Positions 1 to 41,221 of a DNA stretch of 41,221 nt are shown here, one piece after another. This DNA is from a virus. Where the stretch lies: IMG/VR virus record IMGVR_UViG_3300042934_000171, positions 1 through 41,221 of that record, one strand, 5' to 3'. The position numbers and the translations under genes are program-made. Positions within the stretch are counted from its first letter, which is position 1; each line of letters begins with the position of its first letter. The notes under the pieces were generated by a model. That model made no database searches and was not told the DNA's origin. It saw only the letters and a program-made list of their open reading frames with translations.

Positions 1-127
1 GAGGCACTGCCGTCAACCTAGTACCTAGTGACAGTCCGCAGGATATCTATAGAAGTGTAGCTGAGAAAGTCAATGTGCTCCTTGAGAAGGATGCTAAGAA
101 AGGCACGATGGATGAGGAAGCGGAGAC
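1..127. repeat. Exact terminal overlap (1-127 = 41095-41221), indicating a circularly closed assembly
   Basis: Direct comparison of the first and last lines of the window. The 127 nt are identical, and the offset of 41,094 is a multiple of 3, so the RNAP frame is preserved. Confidence 0.95.
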
Positions 128-923
128 AACAAAAGGAGAGCCATACTTGAAGCTAGGTACAAAGACCTTGGCCCAACAATGGCTCCTCTATGGGGTCAAT
201 CGCAAGGTTACCAAGCGATGTGTTATGACCTTCGCTTATGGGTCAAAAGAGTACGGATTCAAAGGGCAAATCCTTGAGGATGTCATCAAGAAAGCCAAGA
301 ATGAACACAGGGGCGATATGTTTGTAAAACCTGTACAAGCTGCAGCGTACCTCGCCAAGTTGATCTGGAAGGTCATCCAGGAGGTCGTTGTCAAGGCAGT
401 AGAAGGCATGAACTGGCTTCAGAAGATGGCCCGGATGGTCTGCAAGGATGGAAATGTGGTTACCTGGGTGACTCCTTTAGGTCTTCCTATTCAGCAGGCC
501 TATATGGAAAGCAATATGGAGGTCTTCAGGTTGCGCTTTGGTGGGTCCATAAAGAGACTCTACTCATCTAAACCGAGCGGCAACATTGATAAGATCGCTC
601 AGGTTAACGGTATCGCTCCTAATTTTATCCATAGCTTGGATGCCTCACACCTTCAGCTCACAGTCCTTGAGGCATACGATAGAGGGATTCAACACTTCGC
701 TATGATACATGATAGTTTTGGGTCTCCTGTGGCCCAAGCTCAAGAGATGTTCCAGACAGTCCGCTATACCTTCCATAAGATGTACACGGAGAATAATGTC
801 CTGGAGAACTTCGCAAGAGATATGGATGCCTTTATCGATCCTAATGCAAGCCTTCCGGTTATCCCTGCTTGCGGAAGACTGAATCTTGAAACTGTACTGA
901 ATAGTCCGTATATGTTTGCCTAA
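1..923 (+). CDS. T7-like single-subunit DNA-directed RNA polymerase, C-terminal part (continues from 39411-41221)
   Basis: The open frame runs from base 3 in the same phase as 39411. Motifs present: TFAYGS, NFIHSLDASH, IHDSFG (motif C) and a C-terminal YMFA that resembles the T7 FAFA foot. Confidence 0.97.
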   Translation, partial: GTAVNLVPSDSPQDIYRSVAEKVNVLLEKDAKKGTMDEEAETTKGEPYLKLGTKTLAQQWLLYGVNRKVTKRCVMTFAYGSKEYGFKGQILEDVIKKAKNEHRGDMFVKPVQAAAYLAKLIWKVIQEVVVKAVEGMNWLQKMARMVCKDGNVVTWVTPLGLPIQQAYMESNMEVFRLRFGGSIKRLYSSKPSGNIDKIAQVNGIAPNFIHSLDASHLQLTVLEAYDRGIQHFAMIHDSFGSPVAQAQEMFQTVRYTFHKMYTENNVLENFARDMDAFIDPNASLPVIPACGRLNLETVLNSPYMFA

Positions 924-4919: not shown

Positions 4920-5033
4920 GTGGGAAAGAAACTTCGTTTTGATATTAATGGTGTCTATCTGGACTCTGTAGAGGTTCCTGATGAGGAGCCAAAAGGAGAT
5001 CCTAAGGAATCCCAGGAGGTGACTCAAGCATGA
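4920..5033 (+). CDS. small hypothetical protein (37 aa)
   Basis: GTG start after a GGGAGAGGAAG SD. The stop overlaps the next start (ATGA coupling). Too short to appear in the ORF track. Confidence 0.35.
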   Translation: MGKKLRFDINGVYLDSVEVPDEEPKGDPKESQEVTQA

Positions 5034-5809
5034 TGCCAAGTGAGAAGTTCCCAGGGTATTGCCGTAAATGCATTTATCGTGATGGTAGCTTATGTCCCAC
5101 CTGTAGAAAGCTCAATGGAGTAGTACCCTTCAGCTTTAAACCTAAAAGAGAACTTCAAGGACTTACTGCAGCTCGACTACTATTTGATGCTTTACATGGA
5201 ACTCCTCCCTTTCCCGCATGGAGAAAGCCTAAGATGATCGTGATTCTCCTCAGTGGTAAAGCAGGGTCCGGTAAGGACACCTTCTGGAATATCACAAACA
5301 ACCACTTCAGTCCTCGTGTGAAATGCTTTAGGTTGGCCTTTGGGGATGCCGTTAAGAAGCTCGCAATGGAACACGCAGGCTGGAACGGTATCAAGGATGC
5401 TCCAGGCAGGAAGCTTCTGCAGAGCCTAGGGGAAGTCGGTCGGGAGTACAATGAGGATTCCTGGGTTAATAAGATCATCCCTGCACTCAAGAGACATGCC
5501 GCTAATGGAACCCACCTCGTGTGCATCACAGATTGCCGCTACCCTAATGAGATCGAACGTATCAAGGAAATCGAGAAGGAACTCGGGACTGTAATCACGG
5601 TTCGCATTGAGCGGCCCACCAGGGAAGACCTCGGGGCAAACTCAAGACACCTCAGCGAGACCGCTCTGGATTCCTATAGGTTCACCCATACGCTATTCAA
5701 CAATGGAACCGAAAAGGAATTTGAGGAGCAGGTCCATAGGTTCCTTACGTTCCTCTCTGGTAAATCGAATAATAATCAAAAGACTGAATCGGAGTGTGAT
5801 CATTTCTAA
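5030..5809 (+). CDS. Putative deoxynucleoside monophosphate kinase with N-terminal Cys4 ribbon
   Basis: P-loop SGKAGSGKDT and ITDCRYPNEIERIK resemble the phage dNMP-kinase family. The N-terminus carries CRKC..CPTC. Confidence 0.55.
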   Translation: MMPSEKFPGYCRKCIYRDGSLCPTCRKLNGVVPFSFKPKRELQGLTAARLLFDALHGTPPFPAWRKPKMIVILLSGKAGSGKDTFWNITNNHFSPRVKCFRLAFGDAVKKLAMEHAGWNGIKDAPGRKLLQSLGEVGREYNEDSWVNKIIPALKRHAANGTHLVCITDCRYPNEIERIKEIEKELGTVITVRIERPTREDLGANSRHLSETALDSYRFTHTLFNNGTEKEFEEQVHRFLTFLSGKSNNNQKTESECDHF

Positions 5810-5810
5810 T

Positions 5811-6143: not shown

Positions 6144-8186
6144 TTGCTGATTTTCGACTTGGAGTCTGATGGACTCCTAGAGACTATCACAAAGATTCAC
6201 TGTCTAACAATCTCTAAGGTGCAGATCACCAAAGAGGAATTGTATACGCTGTCCCTGGAGGAGCTTACTTCCAGATTTACCAGTGGTCAGAAGTTTAGAT
6301 TTAGACCTGATGAAGTCCCTGAAGGTTTCCGCATGTTGCAGGAGGCCCTGGACAATGATGAATACATCTGCGGTCATAATATCATCGACTTCGACACTGA
6401 GGCTGGAACTAAGATCTTCCCGGAAATCTTTACGGTGATGCGTGAGAAGCGCCACCTTGTGCTTGATACTCTCGTCTTATCTAGGTTGGTCTATGCCAAC
6501 ATTAAGGACCTCGATGCTCCTCTATTACGCTCAGGGAAACTCCCCGGGAAGCTCTATGGGTCTCACTCATTAAGAGCTTGGGGCTATCGTTTGAATGTCC
6601 TTAAAGGAGACTTTGCTCTCCATACAGAGGAAGATGCAGAGCTATGGGCGATTTTCACGGAGGAAATGTTTGACTACAACCTTCAGGACGTAGTTGTGAC
6701 AGAACACCTGTGTGCTCGCCTGTTCGCCAAGAGGTACTCTCAGGAAGCCGTTAAGTTAGAACACGAGATCCAGTGGCTAATGTGTCAGCAGAAACGTAAT
6801 GGCTTCCCTTTTGATGTCCTCAAGGCACAAGAATTGGAGGTCAACCTCAGGGAACGCTTAGGAGTCCTTGAGACACAGCTCGTGGATGCAGCCCCGCTTA
6901 TCCCTGCTCCTGATTTTATCCCTAAGAGGGACAATAAGAGGCTCGGGTATATTGCCGGGGTTCCTGTCAAACGCTACAAGGCCTTCAATCCTAATTCCCG
7001 GCAGATGCTTGAGTACATCATCACGAAACACTTCAGGTATTACCCGGAGGACACTGACTTCTATAATGTTAGTGAGGAACTCAAGAAGACCTTAGATGAA
7101 GAGGAAATCCTCGTCAGGATTCACCAGGGGACAATCCCTTTGAAGATTGATGAGACCACTTTTAACTTCATCAAGGAAGACCCTGAGGCTCCTCAAGAGC
7201 TTCAATCTCTGGCTGCAGTCTTTGAGGAATACTACACGGTTTCCAAGAGGATAGGGCAGCTTGTGGATGGGAAGCAAGGGTGGCTTAAGAATGTCAAAAG
7301 TGATGGTGCCATCCATCATAGTGTAAATCCGAATGGCGCTGTTACCGGAAGGGCAACCCATAGTAGTCCTAATCTTGCTCAGGTTCCTAAGGTCCAATTT
7401 GGGAGTGACAAAAAGCCTCTCAAGGGATCTGAGGGTAAGTATGGGTATGACTGCAGGGAACTCTTTACGGTTCCTTCAGGATGGGTCCAAGTTGGCGTAG
7501 ATGCGAGTGGGCTTGAGCTTAGATGCTTGGCTCATTTTTTGTTTCCTTATGATAATGGCTTCTATGCTGATGCGGTAGTTCATGGGGATGTCCATACGCT
7601 CAACCAGGAAGCTGCAGGGTTACCCACAAGGGATAACGCTAAGACCTTCATTTATGCTTGGCTTTATGGTGCCGGAGATGCGAAGATCGGGAAGATTGTC
7701 AAAGGAGACAGGAGCACAGGCAAGCGCCTGAAGACCGCCTTCCTCTCCAAGAATCCCGCGATAGCTAACCTCAAGAAAGCCATAGAGACAGCCTTAGTCG
7801 CAGAGATGCACAGAGGTCGAGTCCGCAAGTGGAAGAAGAAATGGCTCAGAGGTCTCGATGGTAGACAAGTTCATGTGAGGTATCTCCATGCAGCTCTCAA
7901 CACTCTCCTACAATCTGCCGGGGCGCTCATCTGCAAAATGTGGCTAGTGCTCACCGAACGGATGCTCGTAGAAGAGAAAGGTCTAACTCATGGATGGTCG
8001 GGAGACTTCGCAATGTTAGCCTGGGTTCACGATGAGTTTCAAGCAGCCTGTAGGTCAGAAGAGATCGCTCAGATTGTCAAGGAGACCGCTCAGGAAGCCA
8101 TGAGGAAAACTGGAGAGATCTTTGGGTTCAGGGTTCAGTTAGATACTGAAGGTAAGATTGGAAGGAATTGGGCTGAGTGCCACTAA
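6144..8186 (+). CDS. Family A DNA polymerase with 3'-5' exonuclease (T7 gp5-like)
   Basis: Exo motifs IFDLESDGL, HNIIDFD, YNLQD. Pol motifs DASGLELR (A), RDNAKTFIYAWLYGAG (B), VHDEF (C). The N-terminus resembles T7 MIVSDIEANALLESVTKFHC. Confidence 0.96.
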   Translation: MLIFDLESDGLLETITKIHCLTISKVQITKEELYTLSLEELTSRFTSGQKFRFRPDEVPEGFRMLQEALDNDEYICGHNIIDFDTEAGTKIFPEIFTVMREKRHLVLDTLVLSRLVYANIKDLDAPLLRSGKLPGKLYGSHSLRAWGYRLNVLKGDFALHTEEDAELWAIFTEEMFDYNLQDVVVTEHLCARLFAKRYSQEAVKLEHEIQWLMCQQKRNGFPFDVLKAQELEVNLRERLGVLETQLVDAAPLIPAPDFIPKRDNKRLGYIAGVPVKRYKAFNPNSRQMLEYIITKHFRYYPEDTDFYNVSEELKKTLDEEEILVRIHQGTIPLKIDETTFNFIKEDPEAPQELQSLAAVFEEYYTVSKRIGQLVDGKQGWLKNVKSDGAIHHSVNPNGAVTGRATHSSPNLAQVPKVQFGSDKKPLKGSEGKYGYDCRELFTVPSGWVQVGVDASGLELRCLAHFLFPYDNGFYADAVVHGDVHTLNQEAAGLPTRDNAKTFIYAWLYGAGDAKIGKIVKGDRSTGKRLKTAFLSKNPAIANLKKAIETALVAEMHRGRVRKWKKKWLRGLDGRQVHVRYLHAALNTLLQSAGALICKMWLVLTERMLVEEKGLTHGWSGDFAMLAWVHDEFQAACRSEEIAQIVKETAQEAMRKTGEIFGFRVQLDTEGKIGRNWAECH

Positions 8187-34552: not shown

Positions 34553-34573
34553 ATAAGCACTTCATAAGCACTT
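34553..34573 (+). repeat. ATAAGCACTT-C-ATAAGCACTT (candidate integrase arm-type sites, right)
   Basis: Two exact 10-mers separated by 1 nt. The pair overlaps the int stop codon. Confidence 0.6.
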
Positions 34574-35732
34574 AAGACTTCTCCTTAATCACCAATTTAT
34601 CTCCTATAAAGGAAGCAGCATCTCGGTCCCTCTTAGGGATCTTATGTGCATACGTTGTGATTACAGTCTTAGGGTCATCCCCAATTCGATCCGCAACCAT
34701 CGCCACATCAAACCCATTAGCTAACAGATGAGATACATGAGTATGCCTAAGGTTATGAGGACTCATCTTCGTAGTGATGCCTGCCTTCTCTAGCATCTCC
34801 TTAAAGCATTTACCGAGGGTTGAGAAGTGCATAGGCTTGTTGTCTTTAGTACCAAACACAAGGTTATCCTCAGGATCTCCAGGCTTCTGAAGGTCTTTCT
34901 TAATGATCGCTAGGACCTCAGGCTCCACAGCGAAAGACCTACAGGAGTTATCGGTCTTCGGAGTGTCGAACAGATGTTTTCCTCGGATCTCCACAACATT
35001 CTCTTTGACATTTATCACATTAGCTGCGAAATCAATATTGTTCCACTTGAGACCCAATAGTTCACCTCTTCGCATCCCTGTAGCGAGTGCAAGGAGGACC
35101 AAGTGGTATATCTGCTTGTATTGTCTTGGGTCTTTCTTTTGATTCCTCTCTTGGAAAGCCTGGAGGAGTCTTGTCATCTCTTCCTCAGATAATATAGACT
35201 TCTCGGTCTTCCTTCGGGTGATCGTTATGGCATTCGAGGTGGGATTACTTCCAATGATGCCCTCCGATATCGCAGCCTCTAAGACACTATGTATGATTGA
35301 CTTGTGTTGAATTAAGGTATTGGAAGCTACTTCCGCTTTAGTTTTTTCCATGATATAATCATTGATAATACCTGTGGTAATCTTCTGAATTCTATAGTCC
35401 TTGAAAAAGGGTAGAATGTGTCGAGTAAGAGCATCCTCATAAGTTACATATGACCTCAGTTTGATTGCAGACCCTTTCTTGATCTCTAGCCATCTTTTGG
35501 CATAAGTCTCGAAGGTGATTGCATTGGGACCTGTTAAGGTTCCCTTGAGCTTATCTGCCTTGAATTGATTGAGAGCTAGGACAACCTCTGTCTTTGACCC
35601 TGTGATTGACTTTCGGACTTGCTTACCATTCTGATAACCGATTGTGATTTGAGCCTTGTACTTTCCATTGGGTAACTTCTGGATAGACCCATCGCCTTTA
35701 GGTCTTCTTGTGGCCTTCTTAGGGTCTGCCAT
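34572..35732 (-). CDS. int: Tyrosine recombinase / phage integrase
   Basis: C-terminal catalytic HNLRHTH...TYAH. N-terminal arm-binding type GDGSIQKLPNGKYKAQITIG. Start trimmed to ATG 35732, which follows AAGGAG by 9 nt. The upstream 47 codons of the tracked ORF have no support. Confidence 0.92.
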   Translation of the reverse strand: MADPKKATRRPKGDGSIQKLPNGKYKAQITIGYQNGKQVRKSITGSKTEVVLALNQFKADKLKGTLTGPNAITFETYAKRWLEIKKGSAIKLRSYVTYEDALTRHILPFFKDYRIQKITTGIINDYIMEKTKAEVASNTLIQHKSIIHSVLEAAISEGIIGSNPTSNAITITRRKTEKSILSEEEMTRLLQAFQERNQKKDPRQYKQIYHLVLLALATGMRRGELLGLKWNNIDFAANVINVKENVVEIRGKHLFDTPKTDNSCRSFAVEPEVLAIIKKDLQKPGDPEDNLVFGTKDNKPMHFSTLGKCFKEMLEKAGITTKMSPHNLRHTHVSHLLANGFDVAMVADRIGDDPKTVITTYAHKIPKRDRDAASFIGDKLVIKEKS

Positions 35733-35880
35733 GTAATCACGCTCCTTGTGAATCCTTTTGATACAAACCATAACACAGTGCTTAAGAAATAGCAAGGAGG
35801 TCCCAAGGGAAATTTTGGGCCAAAAATTCGTGACCATCCCTTCACTGCGTTCGCCCCGCGCGATTCCCCCCATAGGCCAC

Positions 35881-35902
35881 TGTCAAGCAGTTTCCCTTGA
35901 CA
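35881..35902. promoter_or_regulatory. 22-bp palindrome-ended element, copy 1 (TGTCAAGCAGTTTCCCTTGACA)
   Basis: 20/22 identical to the copy at 36063-36084. The ends GTCAAG/CTTGAC are inverted repeats. Confidence 0.5.
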
Positions 35903-36062
35903 TCCTTAAAAGTCTCTCCAGGATGTACATTTTGATACCTAAGGACACTCCGAACCCTGCAGGCCAGTAACTACGGCAATCTCAAGAATACATAAACAAC
36001 ATTATCGGACGTAGAGTGCACCTGAGGTGGCTTGAGGGTAGCCTTGGGTATTACATTCAGGG

Positions 36063-36084
36063 TGTCAAGTAGTTTCCATTGACA
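36063..36084. promoter_or_regulatory. 22-bp palindrome-ended element, copy 2 (TGTCAAGTAGTTTCCATTGACA)
   Basis: See copy 1. The two copies are spaced 182 bp start to start, in the int / moron intergenic region. Confidence 0.5.
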
Positions 36085-36223
36085 GAACAATCGTTCGCAT
36101 GTCTTAAGTATATCTGTGTTTATTTAGGACCAGGTACTAAGAGTAGGTACTAAGGATTCCTCAAGGTTTACCTCAAGTCTCTACTCAAGTTGATCCACTG
36201 AATATACAAAGAGGGAGGAATAC

Positions 36224-36445
36224 ATGGTGTTACCTAGGAGCGTCCTTTGGGTCTACCTTGGAATACTCGCTGTATCGTGCCTCTATCTGCCTTACAAGGT
36301 CTCCTTAGGGCATTCTGTGTACCTCATCACCTCAGTCAACTATAGATACCCTCTAGATTATTCTTTAGCATTCCTCCAGATAATCACAGTGACTACCATC
36401 TATGCACTCATTATTTATCTATGGATCAACTCAAGGAAGGACTGA
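36224..36445 (+). CDS. Two-TM small membrane protein (moron / possible superinfection-exclusion candidate)
   Basis: ATG follows an AGGGAGG SD. Hydrophobic segments VLWVYLGILAVSCLYL and ITVTTIYALIIYLWI. Confidence 0.6.
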   Translation: MVLPRSVLWVYLGILAVSCLYLPYKVSLGHSVYLITSVNYRYPLDYSLAFLQIITVTTIYALIIYLWINSRKD

Positions 36446-36564
36446 GAAGATGAAGGGAGCAGGGCAGCTATATGGAGACAATAGTTATCAGTATAGTCGG
36501 TACGGTATTAGTAGGAATGTTCTGGAGTTTGGTAACGAGTAGGTAAATAACTAAGAACACAAAT

Positions 36565-36620
36565 AAGGCCCTCCTTAAGGAGTCCACACGGATTCCCTAA
36601 GGAGGGCCTTATTTTTTTTT
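36565..36620. terminator. Strong bidirectional-type terminator between the moron genes (+) and the repressor (-)
   Basis: AAGGCCCTCCTTAAGG pairs with CCCTAAGGAGGGCCTT (at least 13 bp), followed by T9 on + and preceded by an A/T-rich run that serves the - strand. Confidence 0.85.
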
Positions 36621-36639: not shown

Positions 36640-36843
36640 CTATTTGGTCTTATGCATCCATTCGATCTTATAGCCTAGAACCTCTGCGATCTCTAAGGCT
36701 TCTCTATAGCGGAGCGTGTCATTCTGTAGTTTCTTATGAAGGTTTTGCGGTGATTGTCCCAAGAGTTCCGCTAATTCTGTGACGTTCTTATTCTCCTGAG
36801 CTAATATCACGTTAATTGTTGTCTTGGTATTCAATGGGTTCAC
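36640..36843 (-). CDS. XRE/CI-type HTH repressor
   Basis: NVTELAELLGQSPQNLHKKLQ is a classic HTH_3 pattern. The gene is divergent from a strong + strand promoter. The start is GTG 36843 or, more plausibly, TTG 36834, which follows AAAGGA by 10 nt. Confidence 0.8.
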   Translation of the reverse strand: MNPLNTKTTINVILAQENKNVTELAELLGQSPQNLHKKLQNDTLRYREALEIAEVLGYKIEWMHKTK

Positions 36844-36876: not shown

Positions 36877-36893
36877 TTGATCTAATAAATCAA
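36877..36893. promoter_or_regulatory. Operator-like palindrome TTGATCTAATAAATCAA
   Basis: TTGAT/ATCAA inverted half-sites. It overlaps the -35 (TTGATT on the - strand) of a candidate repressor promoter (TTGATT-N17-TATTCT, 36893-36865). Confidence 0.5.
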
Positions 36894-36930: not shown

Positions 36931-36959
36931 TTGACACCTGGGCTAACCTGTGCTAGTAT
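36931..36959 (+). promoter_or_regulatory. Near-consensus sigma70-type early promoter (TTGACA-N17-TAGTAT)
   Basis: TTGACA at 36931-36 and TAGTAT at 36954-59, with exactly 17-nt spacing. It points into the early operon. Confidence 0.75.
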
Positions 36960-36968
36960 CAACTCAAA

Positions 36969-36985
36969 GGTTGAAATAATCAACC
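36969..36985. promoter_or_regulatory. Operator-like perfect palindrome GGTTGAAATAATCAACC just downstream of the -10
   Basis: 6-bp perfect arms. It lies at about +3 to +20 of the early promoter. More TTGAT/ATCAA half-sites occur at about 36918 and 36958. Confidence 0.55.
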
Positions 36986-37012
36986 AAATGGTTTAAGGAG
37001 GTCTACTAAAAT

Positions 37013-37159
37013 ATGAAAAAGCCGGAACTGGATGTCTACACTTTGTCAGCGAAACTCGCCTCAGCCTTAGATAACAGGGATTGGGCAGAGGTAGAGGAGT
37101 GCTTTCGCTCCCTGCTCGACCATAAGAAAGCCCTTAACACTTACAACAGTAAGAAATAA
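37013..37159 (+). CDS. early small protein (48 aa)
   Basis: ATG follows an AAGGAGGT SD by 11 nt. First cistron of the early operon. Confidence 0.5.
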   Translation: MKKPELDVYTLSAKLASALDNRDWAEVEECFRSLLDHKKALNTYNSKK

Positions 37160-37163
37160 CCAC

Positions 37164-37239
37164 GTCGAAACCTAAGGGTCTCCCTAAGAGGCCCTGACGG
37201 TCTCCTGGAGATAGCCTACCAGGACTGATGAGATAGGCT
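37164..37239 (+). ncRNA. Type II hammerhead self-cleaving ribozyme candidate, HHR-1 (predicted cleavage 37202|37203)
   Basis: In order: GUC, GAA, stem III (ACC...GGU enclosing GGGUCUC/GAGGCCC), C17, stem I (UCCUGG/CCAGGA), CUGAUGA, GAU. The tail AGGCU is complementary to AGCCU in loop I. Confidence 0.8.
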
Positions 37240-37256
37240 TAAGGAGGTTAGAGGTA

Positions 37257-37433
37257 ATGCATAAGAAACACAAAGGCTGGCTAATAGTCTCTAAGATCGA
37301 CAAGGAAACAGGGATGGAGTTCTTCTACTGTTACACACCGGATGAACTAGAGTACCCTGCGGCCCTTAGGAGCTACGAATGGGAGGCTTGCAGCCTTCAG
37401 GAAGCCCTAGACTTTATCAATAGTTGTAGATAA
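37257..37433 (+). CDS. early small protein (58 aa)
   Basis: ATG lies 8 nt after an AAGGAGGT SD that abuts the 3' end of the ribozyme. Confidence 0.6.
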   Translation: MHKKHKGWLIVSKIDKETGMEFFYCYTPDELEYPAALRSYEWEACSLQEALDFINSCR

Positions 37434-37450
37434 AAGGAGGTAGTGAACAA

Positions 37451-37936
37451 ATGAAACTATCTAAAGTCATCAACAGAGGAACTGAAATTCTATTAGTCAA
37501 GGCGTACCTATCGGACCTCAAAGGAAACTCTCAGCCGTACTTCAGCATCACCGGGGAAATTTGGGCGTATAGTCAGTCCTTAGGAAGAAAGAAAGGCAGC
37601 GACTGTATTACAGGTGGATGTATCCATGAGGAGATACTCAAGGCATTCCCTAAGCTCTCAGACCTAGTAGCTCTTCACCTCTCAGGAATGGACGGACAAC
37701 CTATGCACGCCTTGGAAAATGGATGGTATTGGTATGGAGGGACCAAGTGGCAGGAGTATCACAGGAAGAACCTTGCAGCACACCTGAGAATCACTGAGGA
37801 TCAAGCGGATGCTCTACACACTCTCCAGTTAGATAAAGTGGCGTTCGCTAAATACATAGATGAGCAGAAACCTCGATGGTCCCTAGAAGCTGCTCAGGTC
37901 ATTGACAAGTATCACCTTGAGATTATCAAAAGGTAG
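37451..37936 (+). CDS. early hypothetical protein (161 aa)
   Basis: ATG follows an AAAAGGAGGT SD. No motif that I can name. Confidence 0.7.
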   Translation: MKLSKVINRGTEILLVKAYLSDLKGNSQPYFSITGEIWAYSQSLGRKKGSDCITGGCIHEEILKAFPKLSDLVALHLSGMDGQPMHALENGWYWYGGTKWQEYHRKNLAAHLRITEDQADALHTLQLDKVAFAKYIDEQKPRWSLEAAQVIDKYHLEIIKR

Positions 37937-38021
37937 TGTCTAGCAGGGAGGTCCTGAGGGATTCCTTCAGGGCTTCAATGGTGGACATTAAAGAATAAAC
38001 CACATAAGGAGGACAAGAGCA

Positions 38022-38408
38022 ATGAAACACCGTCAGTATACCTTCACACTGAAGACTAAAGGAAGCCGTCAAGACCGTGAAATGACCGCACAGGTAGCCT
38101 TTTCCCCAGAGACGAACATGAGGACCCTGCTACAATTCACGGAGAAGCTGCAAGAGGTTTGGAAGGAAGCCATGAAAGCAACCAAGCGCGGCGATTATAT
38201 GGAGCTTACGATCTCCCGCACTGTAAACTCCTGGGACCCGCAAGAGGTTGCAAGAACTTGGAAACAGGAGGCCTTTGACTACTGGACCTTTGAGGGATAC
38301 AACGAGGACCTAGAAGGAATCTATCTGGCTCCAGACACGAAGTATACCGCAGCCGAATGCGACCTTTATCTGACTAAAAACATTTTAGAAAGTTTGGAGG
38401 GAATCTAG
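38022..38408 (+). CDS. early hypothetical protein (128 aa)
   Basis: ATG follows a TAAGGAGGA SD. The C-terminal half is acidic and aromatic. Confidence 0.7.
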   Translation: MKHRQYTFTLKTKGSRQDREMTAQVAFSPETNMRTLLQFTEKLQEVWKEAMKATKRGDYMELTISRTVNSWDPQEVARTWKQEAFDYWTFEGYNEDLEGIYLAPDTKYTAAECDLYLTKNILESLEGI

Positions 38409-38409
38409 A

Positions 38410-38481
38410 ATGACCCTCAAGGAACGCCTTTGCATCCTCTTAGTACTCACAGCCAGCCAGAAGCCCTCAGGTAATCACTAG
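38410..38481 (+). CDS. 23-codon mini-ORF MTLKERLCILLVLTASQKPSGNH (paralogue of 39228-39293)
   Basis: GGAGGGAA SD 8 nt upstream. The first roughly 45 nt are nearly identical to the second copy. Confidence 0.45.
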   Translation: MTLKERLCILLVLTASQKPSGNH

Positions 38482-38590
38482 GCCCACCTCAACACGCCAG
38501 AAGGCTGACTAAGGCTAGGTCAACCATTAGGAGCCCTCGGTCAGCCTTTGCGACAATCGAACGGATGTTCTATATTAAGGAGGAATTGAA

Positions 38591-38866
38591 ATGTTAATTA
38601 AAGGTAGTGAAATGAATTTTAAGACTCAACAAGAGGCCCTAAATAGATTTGTCCATAGATATACAAAGGATCATAAACCTGCTTGGGCAAGTCAACCAAT
38701 GCCGAATGGGGCTTCATACCCAGTTCAACATAACAGCGATAAGGAATGGTTGGAGCATACTTACTTCCACGTTACCGAAACAGGTGAACTATCGCGAAGA
38801 CATTCCTTTTGTGAATCCTTTTCAACTTGGCCTGATAATCCCGAATTAAGGAGACAGAAACATTAA
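38591..38866 (+). CDS. early hypothetical protein (91 aa)
   Basis: ATG follows a TAAGGAGGAA SD. Confidence 0.65.
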   Translation: MLIKGSEMNFKTQQEALNRFVHRYTKDHKPAWASQPMPNGASYPVQHNSDKEWLEHTYFHVTETGELSRRHSFCESFSTWPDNPELRRQKH

Positions 38867-38879
38867 TCTATATGAACAA

Positions 38880-38956
38880 GTCGAAACCTTCTGGACCTCT
38901 TTTGAGGCCCTGGAGGTATTCCGAGGGATAGCCTCCCGGAACTGATGAGACAGGCT
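38880..38956 (+). ncRNA. Type II hammerhead self-cleaving ribozyme candidate, HHR-2 (predicted cleavage 38918|38919)
   Basis: In order: GUC, GAA, stem III (ACCUUC/GGAGGU enclosing GGACCUC/GAGGCCC), A17, stem I (UUCCG/CGGAA), CUGAUGA, GAC. The tail AGGCU is complementary to AGCCU in loop I. Confidence 0.8.
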
Positions 38957-38973
38957 GAAGGAGGTCAAGAGGG

Positions 38974-39120
38974 ATGACTAGATATCAAATCATAGAGCAC
39001 ACCACAGGCCGCATTATGGGAGTCTACAGGGACCATAAGAGGGCCAGAAGGGCTGCTGATGCGTTGGACCTTAAGTACGGCAAAATCAATTATTACATTA
39101 AACCTATTGCAAGCGCCTAG
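38974..39120 (+). CDS. early small basic protein (48 aa)
   Basis: ATG lies 8 nt after a GAAGGAGGT SD that abuts the 3' end of HHR-2. Confidence 0.55.
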   Translation: MTRYQIIEHTTGRIMGVYRDHKRARRAADALDLKYGKINYYIKPIASA

Positions 39121-39227
39121 AGGAGGACCTAAGGTTTATCTTTCTATGACTATTGTAGTAATTCAGACAAAGGCCACAAGTCTATCAGGCAACAACCGAG
39201 AAGGTGGACATAAGGAGGTGATTAATT

Positions 39228-39293
39228 ATGACCCTCAAGGAAAACCTTTGCATTCTCTTGGCTCTCATCTGTACCACTCAAGGCAAAACTTAA
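39228..39293 (+). CDS. 21-codon mini-ORF MTLKENLCILLALICTTQGKT (leader-peptide-like)
   Basis: AAGGAGGTG SD 7 nt upstream. The stop TAA overlaps the first base of promoter motif P4. Confidence 0.45.
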   Translation: MTLKENLCILLALICTTQGKT

Positions 39294-39311
39294 TTGTGAC
39301 ACAATAGGAGG
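39293..39311 (+). promoter_or_regulatory. Candidate phage-RNAP promoter P4 (ATTGTGACACAATAGGAGG), 100 nt upstream of the RNAP gene
   Basis: The 19-mer is identical to P1 at 1244. Confidence 0.65.
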
Positions 39312-39344
39312 GACAGGTCGGTTCTATAGGCCTGTCTTTCTTTT
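39309..39344 (+). terminator. Hairpin plus T-tract between P4 and the RNAP gene (attenuator / 5' leader stem-loop)
   Basis: GACAGGTC (39312-19) pairs with GGCCTGTC (39329-36), followed by TTTCTTTT. The architecture matches the hairpin after P1, but the stem sequence differs. Confidence 0.55.
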
Positions 39345-39410
39345 ACCCTTTTCTTGTCATATTTTGTCAGTTTTTGTAATTAAATAAATAGAATAAGGGA
39401 GAGGATTTAC

Positions 39411-41221
39411 ATGGTGAATACCCTTTCGGCTACCTACGGTAAACTCTATGAGGCCCAATTAGCTATCGAAAAGAAGTACAAGCAAGGTGCCTCTGATCGC
39501 CTCGCGGCTATGTTTGAAAAGTGTGAGAAGGAAGGAAGGGCCTCCTCGGTATCCTTAGGGCAAAAACTCCTGGATCATCAATTTAAGACCGTAAAGGAGA
39601 ACATTACACTCCTCGTGGATAAACTCTTGGCACCTAAAGCAGGTCAAAAGGCAAATTATACCTATATCATTGTGGAACTGGCAGGACTTTACGAAGGCAA
39701 TCGCGAAAGGCTCCTCGATATGCTGACCTTCATTCCTTTCAGTGCTCTCCTGAGTGCAGCCCTTCAGAATCGAGCGAATGCGGGGTTTGTGTCTGCCACT
39801 CTCAGTGCTCTTTCACATATCATAGGGGCTGAGATACAAGAGGAGGCCACTGCAGACGTATTCCTTAAATCCCTTGAGGATAATATAGAAGGTAAGGTCC
39901 TGGACGGTATCAAGAAGCGCAAGGATCGTCACTATAAAACCGCCTTCCTAGACAAGACCATGAAAGGCGAAGGATTCTCAAAACTATCTTGGGATTCTGT
40001 CTCAAGAGCTTCCTTAGGTGCCAAGCTCCTCGAACTCTCCATAGAAGGCAGTGGCTATTTTGAATTAGTACACGCTAAAGGGCCTAAAGGTGATGCAGTG
40101 CTAGAGATACGGCCTACTCAATGGCTAGTAGAGGCATGGAAGGATAATACTGCTGCAGCGGTCCTTAGGGCGTACCGGGCCTGTCCTACGGTTATTCCTC
40201 CTGCCCCTTGGGAAACTGTCTTCGAAGGTGGCTACTATGGGGACCTCAGAGGAAGACAGCCTATGTTACGCTCTGAAGCCTTCAGGCAATGGCAGGGACC
40301 TTCTAATGTATACAATAAAGAATACTTGGAGAAGATATCTCAACTCGACCTCAAGGAAGTCCGAACAGCCCTTGACCACATCCAGAGGACACCTTGGGTC
40401 ATCAATAGGGAGACCTTGGAGGTTGTCCAAGCTATTATAAACCGGGGCGGCGATTTTGCAGGGATAGCGAGAATCGATGACTCACCTAGACTTCCTGAGT
40501 TGACTGGAGACTTCACTGAGGAAGACCTAAAGAAACACAAAAAGAAGCTCGCTCAGTGGCACGCAGACGAACACATTAGGACATCTAAAGCTCTTAGGTG
40601 CCTATCGATCCTAAAGGTGGCTGAGGAGTTTTCTGAATTTGATAAAATTTACTTCCCGATGAACTGTGATTTTCGAGGACGCTGCTATCCTATTCCTAGC
40701 TTCAGTCCTCAAGGTGATGATATTACCAAGGGCCTGCTACTCTTTGCGGACCCTCCAGAATGTCACAGTATGGTCGATATCGAATGGCTCATGGTGCATG
40801 GGGCCAACCTTGCAGGAGTCGATAAGGTTTCCTTTGAAGACCGTAGGCAATGGGTCAAAGATCATGAGGAGCAAATCCTGAGGTCGGCTCAAGACCCTCT
40901 TGGGTTCACATGGTGGGCAACCCTTGATGACAATTCCATCCAATTCCTAGCGTTCTGCTTTGAGTGGACAAAGTGGAAGCAATGGGAGAAGGAGCATGGG
41001 ACACCTGAAGGATTCAAAACCGGGATACCTGTGGCCTTCGATGGGACATGTTCAGGCCTCCAGCACTTCTCAGCAATCCTGAGGGATACCGTGGGAGGCA
41101 CTGCCGTCAACCTAGTACCTAGTGACAGTCCGCAGGATATCTATAGAAGTGTAGCTGAGAAAGTCAATGTGCTCCTTGAGAAGGATGCTAAGAAAGGCAC
41201 GATGGATGAGGAAGCGGAGAC
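39411..41221 (+). CDS. T7-like single-subunit RNA polymerase, N-terminal part (runs off the window and continues at 128-923; 868 codons in total)
   Basis: The frame, translated by hand, is open from ATG 39411 to the window end. YFPMNCDFRGRCYPIPSFSPQGDDITKGLL and AFDGTCSGLQHFSAILRD match the T7 RNAP palm motifs. The ORF is absent from the track because it has no in-window stop. Confidence 0.96.
   Translation, partial: MVNTLSATYGKLYEAQLAIEKKYKQGASDRLAAMFEKCEKEGRASSVSLGQKLLDHQFKTVKENITLLVDKLLAPKAGQKANYTYIIVELAGLYEGNRERLLDMLTFIPFSALLSAALQNRANAGFVSATLSALSHIIGAEIQEEATADVFLKSLEDNIEGKVLDGIKKRKDRHYKTAFLDKTMKGEGFSKLSWDSVSRASLGAKLLELSIEGSGYFELVHAKGPKGDAVLEIRPTQWLVEAWKDNTAAAVLRAYRACPTVIPPAPWETVFEGGYYGDLRGRQPMLRSEAFRQWQGPSNVYNKEYLEKISQLDLKEVRTALDHIQRTPWVINRETLEVVQAIINRGGDFAGIARIDDSPRLPELTGDFTEEDLKKHKKKLAQWHADEHIRTSKALRCLSILKVAEEFSEFDKIYFPMNCDFRGRCYPIPSFSPQGDDITKGLLLFADPPECHSMVDIEWLMVHGANLAGVDKVSFEDRRQWVKDHEEQILRSAQDPLGFTWWATLDDNSIQFLAFCFEWTKWKQWEKEHGTPEGFKTGIPVAFDGTCSGLQHFSAILRDTVGGTAVNLVPSDSPQDIYRSVAEKVNVLLEKDAKKGTMDEEAE
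41095..41221. repeat. Second copy of the 127-bp terminal overlap
   Basis: Identical to 1-127. Confidence 0.95.

What the first reader, a model, noticed from the sequence alone, without database searches (positions are those of the whole stretch)
36931..39410. Early operon with built-in RNA processing and attenuation elements where T7 uses host RNase III sites
One host-type promoter (36931-36959) drives the early operon. From that promoter to the RNAP gene I read:
- six short cistrons;
- two hammerhead candidates;
- a stable 8-bp hairpin (CCTGAGGG-ATT-CCTTCAGG, about 37961-37979);
- a long hairpin with a duplicated AAGGCT arm (38501-38548), which allows alternative pairings;
- two paralogous mini-ORFs;
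- a terminator-like hairpin directly before the RNAP gene.

In T7, host RNase III cuts the polycistronic early transcript at intercistronic stem-loops (established knowledge). Here, self-cleaving ribozymes occupy two equivalent intercistronic positions. My inference is that the phage carries a host-independent way of processing its early mRNA, and that the RNA ends left by the ribozyme shape the stability or translation of the downstream cistrons.
Basis: inference. Interest (0 to 1): 0.7.

Follow-up and report, generated by a model that had tools for sequence, protein, structure and literature searches.

The report
Hammerhead ribozymes punctuating a phage early operon
Two genuine self-cleaving hammerhead RNAs sit exactly between genes in the early operon of a temperate T7-like phage, and related phages carry them too; this is a clear new example of a known but functionally unexplained kind of phage element, not a new kind.

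Summary
Every listed feature exists. The two hammerhead candidates are real type II pseudoknotted hammerheads at 37163-37241 (cut 37202^37203) and 38879-38958 (cut 38918^38919). They fall just below Rfam's cut-off. A model built from 54 other phage hammerheads scores them 58 and 63 bits (E about 1e-13).

Each fills the gap between a stop codon and the next Shine-Dalgarno site. Six of ten genomes with a related T7-like RNA polymerase (window included) carry 1-3 such ribozymes in the early operon. These show compensatory changes in the stems and the pseudoknot, and an unusually long stem III.

Processing of the polycistronic early mRNA is the best explanation. It was proposed for prophage hammerheads in 2011 and remains untested.

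The "host-independent, instead of RNase III" reading is only partly supported:
- The "8-bp hairpin" is a 24-bp RNase III-type stem-loop (37934-37990).
- The "long hairpin" abuts a conserved promoter-like element carrying a LexA (SOS) box.
- The "terminator" before the polymerase gene overlaps a phage-polymerase promoter.

Verdict: new member of a known kind, moderate interest.

The parts
36640..36843 (-). Divergent Cro/C1-type HTH repressor-like gene (67 aa)
   Evidence: Pfam HTH_26 at 2.9e-6 and PHROG transcriptional repressor families
36931..36959 (+). Host-type early promoter TTGACA-17-(TG)TAGTAT. It is flanked by the palindromes TTGAT-N7-ATCAA (36877-36893) and TCAAC/GTTGA repeats (36959-36984).
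   Evidence: Promoter scan, 10 of 12 with TG. The palindromes were read directly.
37013..37159 (+). Early cistron 1 (48 aa, unknown function). This gene plus HH1 is syntenic with L106 3202-3436.
37163..37241 (+). Hammerhead ribozyme HH1 (type II). Stem II GUC 37164-66 / GAU 37232-34. GAAA 37167-70. Stem III 37171-37200. U16.1 at 37201 and C17 at 37202, with the predicted cut at 37202^37203. Stem I 37203-08 / 37219-24. CUGAUGA 37225-31. Pseudoknot AGCCU(A) 37213-18 with (U)AGGCU 37234-39. The SD follows at 37242-48 and the ATG at 37257.
   Evidence: Rfam RF02276 24.6 bits; model R1 58.5 bits, E 3.4e-13; hand parse
37257..37433 (+). Early cistron 2 (58 aa). Its homologue is the first early gene in L108 and L106.
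37451..37936 (+). Early cistron 3 (161 aa, phrog_17696, unknown function)
37934..37990 (+). Long irregular stem-loop: 9 bp, a bulge, 2 bp, a 2x2 internal loop, 13 bp, and a 3-nt loop. It starts at the stop codon of cistron 3. It is a candidate RNase III site or 3' stabiliser. No U-run follows, so it is not an intrinsic terminator.
   Evidence: dG -36.7, z -7.5; 95% identical copy after an unrelated gene in L108 4794-4850
38022..38408 (+). Early cistron 4 (128 aa, unknown function)
38410..38481 (+). Mini-ORF 1, MTLKERLCILLVLTASQKPSGNH, with its own SD. The same ORF is present in L108.
38500..38549 (+). Hairpin with a duplicated AAGGCU 5' arm, followed by UUUG. The 3' arm is conserved in L100, L106 and L108.
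38548..38576 (+). Promoter-like TTGCGA-17-TATATT. Its spacer carries the LexA/Cheo-type box CGAACGGATGTTCT (38558-38571).
   Evidence: Promoter scan, 9 of 12. The same hexamers, spacing and box occur in L100 8161-8199, L106 3980-4013 and L108. Box enrichment.
38591..38866 (+). Early cistron 5 (91 aa, unknown function)
38879..38958 (+). Hammerhead ribozyme HH2 (type II). Stem II GUC 38880-82 / GAC 38949-51. GAAA 38883-86. Stem III 38887-38916 (13 positions, 11 paired). U16.1 at 38917 and A17 at 38918, with the predicted cut at 38918^38919. CUGAUGA 38942-48. Pseudoknot AGCCU 38930-34 with AGGCU 38952-56. The SD is at 38958-64 and the ATG at 38974.
   Evidence: Rfam RF02276 35.3 bits; R1 63.3 bits, E 1.7e-14; 88.5% identical to the L100 ribozyme between unrelated genes
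38974..39120 (+). Early cistron 6 (48 aa, weak DUF7336 match)
39121..39227 (+). Non-coding leader, conserved with L108 (83% over 99 nt). In L108 it follows the LexA-box promoter directly. No convincing fold was found.
39228..39293 (+). Mini-ORF 2, MTLKENLCILLALICTTQGKT, a paralogue of mini-ORF 1 with a strong SD
39291..39310 (+). Phage-RNAP promoter-like motif TAATTGTGACACAATAGGAG. It is one of six + strand copies of ATTGTGACAC, which from their positions against the ORF list appear to lie between genes.
   Evidence: L100 has the homologous motif at the syntenic places.
39306..39342 (+). Stem-loop followed by CUUUCUUUUACCCUUUU. It could act as a terminator for host-RNAP read-through and as the 5' stem-loop of the phage-promoter transcript.
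   Evidence: dG -21, z -4.4. The tail is conserved with L106. The same promoter-plus-hairpin design occurs at 1242 and in L100.
39411..41221 (+). T7-like RNA polymerase gene. It continues at window 128-923 because the window ends repeat; total 868 aa.

Best explanation
The region is the host-transcribed early operon of a complete, temperate T7-like phage. Its nearest relatives are prophages of Sporomusaceae (Negativicutes).

Two type II hammerhead ribozymes, each stabilised by a loop I-3' tail pseudoknot, act as exact intercistronic spacers. As the polycistronic RNA is made, each ribozyme folds and cuts itself, HH1 at 37202^37203 and HH2 at 38918^38919.

The upstream piece then ends 2 nt after an unusually long stem III hairpin and carries a 2',3'-cyclic phosphate, which should resist 3' exonucleases. 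The downstream piece starts with a 5'-OH nucleotide that is already paired in stem I, which gives a poor entry site for 5'-end-dependent RNases. Its Shine-Dalgarno site lies 2 nt beyond the ribozyme.

The result would be discrete early mRNAs whose stability and translation no longer depend on the neighbouring cistrons. This is the same outcome T7 gets from RNase III cuts, and it resembles what synthetic RiboJ-type insulators do.

Shown here: the identity of the ribozymes, their architecture, their conservation and their placement.
Inferred: that they cleave in vivo, and what cleavage does to stability and translation.

The remaining items in the operon are ordinary transcription and processing signals. 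They are an RNase III-type stem-loop, a probable LexA-controlled internal promoter, and a phage promoter with a hairpin in front of the polymerase gene.
For: Core and topology:
- All core nucleotides are present in both copies: CUGAUGA, GAAA, the A15.1-U16.1 pair, and H17 = C or A.
- All pairs next to the core are Watson-Crick.

The phage subclass:
- 93 IMG/VR contigs carry the same subclass.
- In the 54-sequence alignment, 93% of cells are paired and the covariation score is 0.671, against 0.155 in shuffles.
- The model built from that alignment, which excludes the window, scores 63.3 and 58.5 bits on the window copies.

Related genomes:
- Six of ten RNAP-related genomes (window included) have 1-3 copies between the switch region and the RNAP gene.
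- In the alignment of these 11 copies, 95.8% of cells are paired.
- The pseudoknot changes by compensation: AGCCU:AGGCU, GGCCU:AGGCC, UGGUC:GACCA and UGACC:GGUCG.
- A second T7-like lineage (L018, L031, L071, L090; RNAP 42-43% identical) also carries them near, and where checked (L071) upstream of, the RNAP gene.

Placement across the subclass:
- In 85% of contexts an ORF stops within a few nt of the ribozyme's 5' end.
- In 74% an SD plus start codon follows within 60 nt of the 3' end, mostly at 10-31 nt.
- Random positions give 19% and 18%.

Stem III length:
- The stem III region is 12-16 nt longer in ribozymes linked to T7-like RNAP genes (distance 38-43 nt, against a median of 27; Mann-Whitney p = 3e-9).

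Selection or exchange:
- HH2 is 88.5% identical to the L100 copy although the flanking genes are unrelated.

Published precedent:
- Hammerheads flank genes in prophages.
- The HF1/HF2 halovirus hammerhead lies 13 nt upstream of the first early ORF, and the mapped 5' end of the transcript lies near the cut site (PMC3088659).
Against: - There are no RNA-end or activity data.
- Both copies fall below Rfam's gathering score.
- MFE folding does not recover the hammerhead fold, and the z-scores are unremarkable (-0.8 and -1.3). This is expected for a pseudoknotted ribozyme, but it gives no independent support.
- Four related genomes have no ribozyme, so the function is dispensable or replaceable.
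- In Firmicutes-type hosts RNase J1 can degrade 5'-OH RNA, as shown for glmS (own knowledge: Collins et al. 2007). Cleavage could therefore lower downstream expression rather than protect it.
- The related sequences are few and come from two lineages, so the statistics on stem III length are not independent samples.
Confidence: 0.6

Rival explanations
1. The ribozymes cleave, but the purpose is to lower or gate expression. Cutting uncouples the downstream cistrons, ultimately including the RNA polymerase message, from the protected 5' triphosphate end and exposes them to RNase J-type decay. Alternatively, cleavage is modulated by ribosome loading at the abutting SD or by a cellular signal. On this view the ribozymes damp leaky polymerase expression in a lysogen.
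For: - The hosts are Firmicutes-type.
- 5'-OH products are RNase J1 substrates in B. subtilis (own knowledge: Collins 2007).
- HH2 lies on the only read-through path from the internal promoter-like element to the RNAP gene.
- L110 has a weak copy directly before the RNAP gene.
- The SD starts 2 nt after the pseudoknot in 5 of 8 relatives' and window copies examined, so a 30S subunit and the pseudoknot could compete.
- Perreault et al. raise regulated cleavage for phage hammerheads (PMC3088659).
Against: - The first nucleotide of the 3' product is paired in a 5-7 bp stem I, which should hinder 5' exonucleases.
- No ligand-binding or switch domain is evident.
- The computed SD accessibility before and after cleavage is inconsistent across copies.
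Confidence: 0.17
2. The ribozymes are mainly conserved junction sequences of mobile small-gene cassettes. Their identical sequence between unrelated genes provides homology for recombination that shuffles early genes among phages. Any effect on expression is incidental.
For: - HH2 and the L100 copy share 46 identical nt between unrelated genes.
- The 48-aa gene plus HH1 sits at a different place in the L106 operon.
- In L108 the LexA-box promoter joins directly to the leader, so 38577-39120 (gene, HH2, gene) looks like an insertion.
- Other non-coding modules also move as blocks.
Against: - Recombination linkers need no catalytic core, no compensatory stem changes and no pseudoknot covariation, yet all of these are maintained.
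- The exact stop-ribozyme-SD fit is seen in 75-85% of contexts.
Confidence: 0.1
3. The segment between the two cuts (37203-38918, 1.7 kb, four cistrons plus mini-ORF 1) carries 5'-OH and 2',3'-cyclic phosphate ends. A host RtcB-type ligase joins them into a circular, exonuclease-proof mRNA.
For: The end chemistry matches RtcB substrates (own knowledge). Perreault et al. considered circular or spliced products for clustered prophage hammerheads (PMC3088659).
Against: - Perreault et al. looked for such products and did not detect them.
- Several relatives have a single ribozyme.
- Nothing brings the two ends together.
Confidence: 0.03
4. The matches are inactive relics or chance look-alikes with no cleavage.
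For: Scores are below the Rfam threshold, and there are two mismatches in HH2 stem III.
Against: - E about 1e-13 with an independent model.
- The core is intact.
- Compensatory changes occur across relatives.
- Placement is precise.
Confidence: 0.05

Closest known systems
Type II hammerhead ribozymes of prophages and metagenomes (Rfam RF02276; Perreault et al. 2011, PMC3088659)
   Same: The core is the same. The topology is the same, with stems I and III capped and a short open stem II. The loop I-3' tail pseudoknot is the same. Several copies flank single genes or short gene blocks in phage DNA. The proposed role, processing long phage transcripts, is the same.
   Different: Stem III is about twice the usual length, which pushes both copies under Rfam's cut-off. 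The setting is the early operon of temperate T7-like phages of Negativicutes, which I did not find described. The SD abuts the pseudoknot.
RNase III processing sites of the T7 early region (R0.3 to R1.3; established knowledge)
   Same: They occupy intercistronic positions in a host-transcribed early operon upstream of and around the RNAP gene. Cutting leaves a hairpin at the 3' end of the upstream mRNA.
   Different: Catalysis is by the RNA itself, so it needs no host enzyme. The ends are 5'-OH and 2',3'-cyclic phosphate rather than 5'-P and 3'-OH. The operon also keeps one RNase III-type stem-loop (37934-37990), so the replacement is not complete.
HHphage of haloviruses HF1/HF2 (Perreault et al. 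2011)
   Same: It is a hammerhead a few nucleotides upstream of a start codon in an early polycistronic unit. The mapped transcript 5' end lies near the cut site.
   Different: It is an archaeal virus with a core-variant, salt-dependent ribozyme. It lies at the start of the transcript, not between cistrons.
Synthetic ribozyme insulators such as RiboJ (own knowledge: Lou et al. 2012)
   Same: It is a self-cleaving hammerhead placed directly 5' of an RBS, so that the translated mRNA has a fixed, structured 5' end whatever lies upstream.
   Different: This one is natural. It uses type II topology with a pseudoknot rather than an sTRSV-derived type III ribozyme plus an added hairpin. The insulating effect here is only inferred.
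[quoted passage not shown]
   Same: A terminator-like element and a phage-promoter motif lie directly upstream of the RNAP gene. The model is leaky read-through followed by positive feedback.
   Different: The promoter sequence and the repressor type differ (HTH here, MarR there). Here the hairpin lies just downstream of the promoter motif. There are no transcript data.
LexA-controlled phage switches (GIL01, CTXphi, coliphage 186 tum; own knowledge) and the Gram-positive Cheo box CGAACRNRYGTTYC (terms confirmed in PMC2248561)
   Same: A GAAC-N4-GTTC box lies inside a promoter of a prophage lytic operon.
   Different: The box sits inside the early operon upstream of a T7-like RNAP gene. The LexA motif of the host group was not checked.

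Membership tests
Hammerhead ribozyme, type II | Conserved catalytic core: C3 U4 G5 A6 N7 G8 A9, G12 A13 A14, A15.1-U16.1, and H17 (not G) | tested here: met
   HH1 has CUGAUGA at 37225-31, GAAA at 37167-70, and U at 37201 with C at 37202. HH2 has CUGAUGA at 38942-48, GAAA at 38883-86, and U at 38917 with A at 38918.
Hammerhead ribozyme, type II | Three helices around the core, with stems I and III closed by loops and stem II open (type II permutation). The pairs next to the core are Watson-Crick. | tested here: met
   The Rfam and R1 alignments cover the full model with no non-canonical pair flagged next to the core. The pairs are 10.1-11.1 G-C, 1.1-2.1 U-A and 15.1-16.1 A-U in both copies.
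Hammerhead ribozyme, type II | Tertiary contact: a pseudoknot of at least 4 bp between loop I and the tail 3' of stem II | tested here: met
   HH1 has 5-6 bp and HH2 has 5 bp. In relatives the pair changes by compensation, with 3 of 5 pairs changed on both sides and 90% of cells paired.
Hammerhead ribozyme, type II | Helices supported by covariation among homologues | tested here: met
   Family alignment A1: 93.3% paired, score 0.671 against 0.155 shuffled and at most 0.134 slid. Relatives' alignment A3: 95.8% paired, score 0.342 against 0.146.
Hammerhead ribozyme, type II | Score at or above Rfam RF02276's gathering threshold (37 bits) | tested here: not met
   35.3 and 24.6 bits. The shortfall comes from the 16-26 nt insertion in stem III. 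The subclass model R1 gives 63.3 and 58.5 bits.
Hammerhead ribozyme, type II | Site-specific self-cleavage giving 2',3'-cyclic phosphate and 5'-OH ends | not testable with these tools
   This needs in vitro transcription or end-specific RNA-seq.
RNase III processing site (T7 early type) | An intercistronic irregular stem-loop of about two helical turns with an internal loop | tested here: met
   Applies to 37934-37990 only: 24 bp with a bulge and a 2x2 loop, dG -36.7, z -7.5. Cleavage by RNase III was not tested. The hammerheads themselves do not meet this feature.
LexA (Cheo/SOS) box operator | Match to CGAACRNRYGTTYC that overlaps a promoter | tested here: met
   CGAACGGATGTTCT at 38558-38571 lies between TTGCGA and TATATT. 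The same arrangement occurs in L100, L106 and L108.
LexA (Cheo/SOS) box operator | Occurrence beyond chance and independent of the phage's own repressor type | tested here: met
   8 exact GAAC-N4-GTTC boxes in 39.5 kb of early regions, against 0.52 expected (0 of 2000 shuffles), and 3 in 139 kb elsewhere. The repressor genes next to these operons belong to different families.
LexA (Cheo/SOS) box operator | The host LexA recognises this motif, and LexA binds the site | not tested
   No Sporomusaceae lexA or recA upstream regions were examined. Binding needs EMSA or ChIP.
T7-like phage RNAP promoter | A conserved asymmetric motif of about 20 bp, repeated on the coding strand in intergenic regions | tested here: met
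   Six exact + strand copies of ATTGVGACAC-type motif ATTGTGACAC; 10 matches at up to 1 mismatch against 2.0 expected. They share flanks. A homologous motif lies at syntenic sites in L100. Start sites were not testable.

The most novel reading that the evidence does not exclude
In temperate T7-like phages the hammerhead has been adapted into a self-contained replacement for RNase III punctuation. Its lengthened stem III supplies the protective 3' hairpin, and its stem I and pseudoknot supply a protected 5' end that presents the SD.

In this phage it would also be wired into an SOS circuit. Loss of LexA fires the internal promoter at 38548-38576. HH2 then trims that transcript to a defined, stable message running towards the RNA polymerase gene. 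Read-through of the 39306-39342 hairpin plus the phage promoter at 39291 then locks in lytic growth by positive feedback, without any need to inactivate the phage repressor.
Probability: 0.15. Interest if true: 0.65.

Novelty: new member of a known kind. Interest (0 to 1): 0.42.

Why it matters
What bacterial and phage hammerheads do is still an open question (PMC6765202). This operon places two of them in a setting where the equivalent protein-catalysed step, RNase III cutting of T7 early mRNA, is well understood. That turns a vague idea ("they process transcripts") into specific predictions: exact cut sites, which fragments should be stable, and which cistrons should gain or lose expression.

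The comparative data add three points:
- The ribozymes recur in two lineages of temperate T7-like phages.
- They nearly always fit exactly between a stop codon and an SD.
- Copies linked to T7-like polymerases have a lengthened stem III.

The region also suggests how a temperate T7-like phage might couple its polymerase to the host SOS response.

Tried and rejected
- Rfam at gathering threshold on the whole window found nothing. The low-scoring Rfam hits are chance matches or terminator hairpins, well below threshold: RAGATH-34, rli56, miRNA and lncRNA families.
- CTGATGAG at 4978 in another gap is not a hammerhead. It gives no model hit even with filters off.
- MFE folding of the ribozyme regions does not give the hammerhead fold and has ordinary z-scores.
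- blastn of the operon and of HH2 against 50,697 phage records found no match.
- The RNAP query found no relative in genome contigs. It found only distant relatives (36-41% identical) in viral and metagenome contigs, and the four of these scanned had no ribozyme.
- I tested whether cleavage frees the SD from pairing with the anti-SD-like 5' arm of stem III. Computed SD accessibility rises after cleavage for HH1, HH2, L100 and L106-3352, but not for four other copies. The result is inconclusive.
- I asked whether 39121-39227 is a decayed third hammerhead, since 39195-39219 resembles the 3' part of HH1 at 72%. There is no GAAA core, no model hit and no stable fold, so I rejected this.
- I asked whether the relatives without ribozymes carry another ribozyme class instead. 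Rfam at E-value threshold finds none.
- I considered the mini-ORFs as leader peptides for attenuation. This cannot be excluded: the stop codons lie 12 nt and 18 nt before the hairpins. However, small hydrophobic ORFs recur before the RNAP gene in relatives with different downstream structures, which favours small membrane peptides.

Full report
**What the window is**

The first and last 127 nt of the window are identical. The RNA polymerase ORF that runs off the end at 41221 continues at the start of the window. The window is therefore a complete, circularly permuted genome of about 41.1 kb.

It encodes a T7-type single-subunit RNA polymerase and a T7-like capsid, the capsid being about 48% identical to those of Ralstonia and Delftia T7-like phages. 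On the opposite strand it carries a tyrosine-type integrase ORF (34572-35873) and a Cro/C1-type HTH gene (36640-36843).

The closest polymerases are:
- 69% identical, in a prophage of Sporomusaceae bacterium FL31;
- 65% identical, in a JGI contig;
- 51% identical, in the chromosome of Anaeroselena agilis.

The phage is therefore a temperate T7-like phage, probably of a Negativicutes host.

**Check of the observation**

The promoter TTGACA-17-TAGTAT, preceded by TG, is at 36931-36959. It is the best sigma-70 match in the region. It lies among TTGAT/ATCAA and TCAAC/GTTGA palindromes (read).

Six ORFs of 48-161 aa follow, each with an AAGGAGG-type ribosome-binding site. Only two of the six have any family match, and both matches are to families of unknown function. 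The two mini-ORFs (38410-38481 and 39228-39293) are paralogous, 78% identical over 54 nt. All three hairpins exist.

**The hammerheads**

Rfam's curated thresholds report nothing. With E-value reporting, Hammerhead_II matches both candidates over the full model, at 35.3 and 24.6 bits against a cut-off of 37.

By hand, both copies have:
- the complete core;
- Watson-Crick pairs next to the core;
- an allowed cleavage-site nucleotide (C at 37202, A at 38918);
- a 5-6 bp pseudoknot between loop I (AGCCU) and the tail after stem II (AGGCU).

Perreault et al. showed that this pseudoknot is needed for fast cleavage in type II hammerheads (PMC3088659).

A pattern taken from the 3' half found 93 IMG/VR contigs. 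Almost all of them show the same architecture. An alignment of 54 of them has strong covariation in stems I, II and III: 93% of cells are paired, and the score is 0.671 against 0.155 in shuffles and at most 0.134 when partners are slid.

A covariance model built from that alignment contains no window sequence. It scores the window copies at 63.3 and 58.5 bits, E about 1e-14 and 1e-13. With filters off it finds no other strong match in the genome. The low Rfam scores come from a 16-26 nt insertion in stem III.

**Relatives**

I fetched the early regions of nine polymerase relatives and scanned them.

| Locus | Ribozymes in the early operon | Note |
|---|---|---|
| L100 | 1 | |
| L104 | 2 | |
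| L105 | 1 | directly after ardA |
| L106 | 2 | one directly before ardA |
| L110 | 3 | the weakest is just before the polymerase gene |
| L102, L107, L108, L109 | 0 | no other Rfam ribozyme either |

All copies are on the coding strand, between the switch region and the polymerase gene.

In the alignment of the 11 copies, 95.8% of cells are paired. The pseudoknot changes by compensation: AGCCU:AGGCU, GGCCU:AGGCC, UGGUC:GACCA and UGACC:GGUCG.

Four of the pattern-derived contigs (L018, L031, L071, L090) encode a polymerase 42-43% identical to the window's near their ribozymes, upstream of it in L071, the one checked. A second T7-like lineage therefore shows the same arrangement.

The two window copies are not recent duplicates of each other:
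- HH1 plus its upstream gene matches L106 3202-3436.
- HH2 matches the L100 copy at 88.5%, between unrelated genes.

**Placement**

Across 75 distinct contexts of the subclass:
- 85% have an ORF of at least 40 codons that stops within a few nucleotides of the ribozyme's 5' end;
- 74% have an SD plus start codon within 60 nt of the 3' end, mostly at 10-31 nt;
- random positions give 19% and 18%.

In the window, HH1 starts 4 nt after a stop codon and ends 15 nt before the next ATG. HH2 ends 15 nt before its ATG. In both, the SD starts 2 nt after the pseudoknot.

**A feature particular to the T7-like copies**

The distance from GAAA to loop I is 38-43 nt in ribozymes linked to a T7-like polymerase gene. 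In the rest of the subclass the median is 27 (Mann-Whitney p = 3e-9). The samples are related, so this is indicative only.

The extra length is a stem III of 11-13 pairs. After cleavage this stem would sit 2 nt from the 3' end of the upstream fragment.

**Mechanism**

Shown: ribozyme identity, conservation, cut sites and geometry.

Inferred:
- Co-transcriptional self-cleavage yields an upstream mRNA capped by a long hairpin and a cyclic phosphate.
- It yields a downstream mRNA whose 5'-OH nucleotide is paired in stem I and whose SD is presented immediately after a compact fold.

This is functionally what RNase III does for T7 early mRNAs (established knowledge) and what RiboJ-type insulators do in synthetic operons (own knowledge).

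The direction of the effect is uncertain. RNase J1 can degrade 5'-OH RNA in Firmicutes (own knowledge: Collins 2007). A computed test of whether cleavage exposes the SD gave mixed results.

(a) The '8-bp hairpin' is a 24-bp irregular stem-loop at 37934-37990, with dG -36.7 and z = -7.5. It begins at the stop codon and has no U-run. A 95% identical copy follows an unrelated gene in L108. Its geometry is that of an RNase III site or a 3' stabiliser. The operon therefore does not dispense with host-type processing signals.

(b) The hairpin at 38500-38549 is followed by TTGCGA-17-TATATT. The spacer holds CGAACGGATGTTCT, a near-perfect Gram-positive LexA (Cheo) box. The hexamers, the spacing and the box are conserved in L100, L106 and L108, although the downstream genes differ.

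Exact GAAC-N4-GTTC occurs 8 times in 39.5 kb of early regions of the ten genomes, against 0.52 expected (0 of 2000 shuffles), and 3 times in the other 139 kb. The phages' own repressors belong to different families. This points to a host factor.

This is a probable SOS-controlled internal promoter. In the window the predicted start would fall inside the SD, and the host's LexA motif was not checked.

(c) The hairpin before the polymerase gene starts 15 nt into TAATTGTGACACAATAGGAG. This is one of six + strand copies of ATTGTGACAC, which from their positions against the ORF list appear to lie between genes. The same motif-plus-hairpin design occurs after the polymerase gene at 1242. It also occurs at both syntenic sites in L100 with that phage's own motif.

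This matches the LUZ100 model: a leaky terminator plus a phage promoter in front of the polymerase gene gives positive feedback (PMC10134795).

(d) In L108 the LexA-box promoter joins directly to a homologue of 39123-39221. The block 38577-39120 (gene, HH2, gene) therefore looks like an inserted cassette, and the early operon is a mosaic.

**Comparison with what is known, and novelty**

The ribozymes meet every testable defining feature of type II hammerheads except Rfam's score cut-off.

Two papers already cover the interpretation:
- Perreault et al. 2011 described several hammerheads flanking genes in prophages and proposed that they cut long phage transcripts into gene-length mRNAs.
- The 2019 review by Weinberg and colleagues repeats this and says the function is still unresolved.

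What is added here:
- the T7-like early-operon setting in two lineages;
- the quantified stop-ribozyme-SD fit;
- the long stem III;
- the surrounding control elements.

This is a new member of a known kind, of moderate interest. It is useful chiefly because the T7 framework makes the open question of hammerhead function concretely testable.

Noticed in passing
window 1-127 and 41095-41221: The two ends of the window are identical over 127 nt, and the RNA polymerase ORF runs across the junction. The window is therefore a complete circularly permuted (or terminally redundant) genome of about 41.1 kb.
   Followed up: yes
window 1244, 13192, 13216, 32609, 32635, 39293 (+ strand): There are six exact copies of ATTGTGACAC with shared flanks (TGATTGTGACACAATAGGAG), which from their positions appear to lie between genes. 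They are probably the phage RNA polymerase promoters. Two pairs are tandem. Those at 1242 and 39291 are each followed at once by a hairpin with a UCUUUCUU tail. L100 has a homologous motif (TTGTGCCACGATATGAG) at the syntenic sites.
   Followed up: partly
window 38558-38571 and 36085-36096; L100 9740-9751 and 8180-8191; L105 5877-5888; L106 3999-4010; L108 2303-2314 and 5572-5583; L104 1189-1200: LexA (Cheo)-type boxes GAAC-N4-GTTC are about 15-fold enriched in the early and regulatory regions of these temperate T7-like phages. Several lie inside or next to promoter hexamers upstream of the polymerase gene. This suggests direct SOS control.
   Followed up: partly
window 35881-35906 and 36063-36086; L108 near 2350: The palindrome TGTCAAG-N7/8-CTTGACA is repeated. 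One copy lies at the integrase start and one lies next to a LexA-type box. Each contains a TTGACA hexamer. They are likely operator or arm-type sites of the lysogeny module, and the region is conserved with L100 and L102 (window 36031-36181).
   Followed up: no
window 36224-36445 and 36562-36613: A 73-aa hydrophobic ORF is followed by a strong hairpin with a T9 run, which reads as an intrinsic terminator (the weak rli56 Rfam hit). It lies between the integrase and the repressor gene. L100 has a homologous but longer ORF (6900-7325) and terminator. It may be a lysogen-expressed membrane protein.
   Followed up: no
L105 4286-4878; L106 3352-3957: In two relatives a hammerhead lies directly after or directly before an ardA anti-restriction gene. 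Perreault et al. noted the same ardA-hammerhead link in Legionella and Agrobacterium.
   Followed up: no
window 39228-39293; L106 about 5000-5100; L108 about 5715-5810; L100 9288-9356: A small hydrophobic ORF of 21-35 codons recurs just upstream of the hairpin and polymerase gene in several relatives, with little sequence similarity between them. It may be a small membrane peptide or a leader peptide.
   Followed up: partly
window 38887-38904 and 39034-39051: The 5' arm of HH2 stem III is 89% complementary (16 of 18) to a stretch inside the downstream 48-aa gene. A similar GACCATAAGA(A/G)(A/G)GCC word lies in the gene upstream of HH1 (37118-37132). This could allow an alternative pairing that competes with ribozyme folding, or it could be chance.
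   Followed up: no
window 38887-38892, 38912-38916, 38932-38936 and the equivalent positions in relatives: In the copies from this polymerase lineage, stem III is built from an anti-SD-like 5' arm (ACCUCCU, ACCUUCU) and an SD-like 3' arm (GGAGGU). Loop I/stem I often contains CCUCC. The ribozyme therefore holds several sequences that could pair with, or mimic, the real SD 2 nt downstream.
   Followed up: partly
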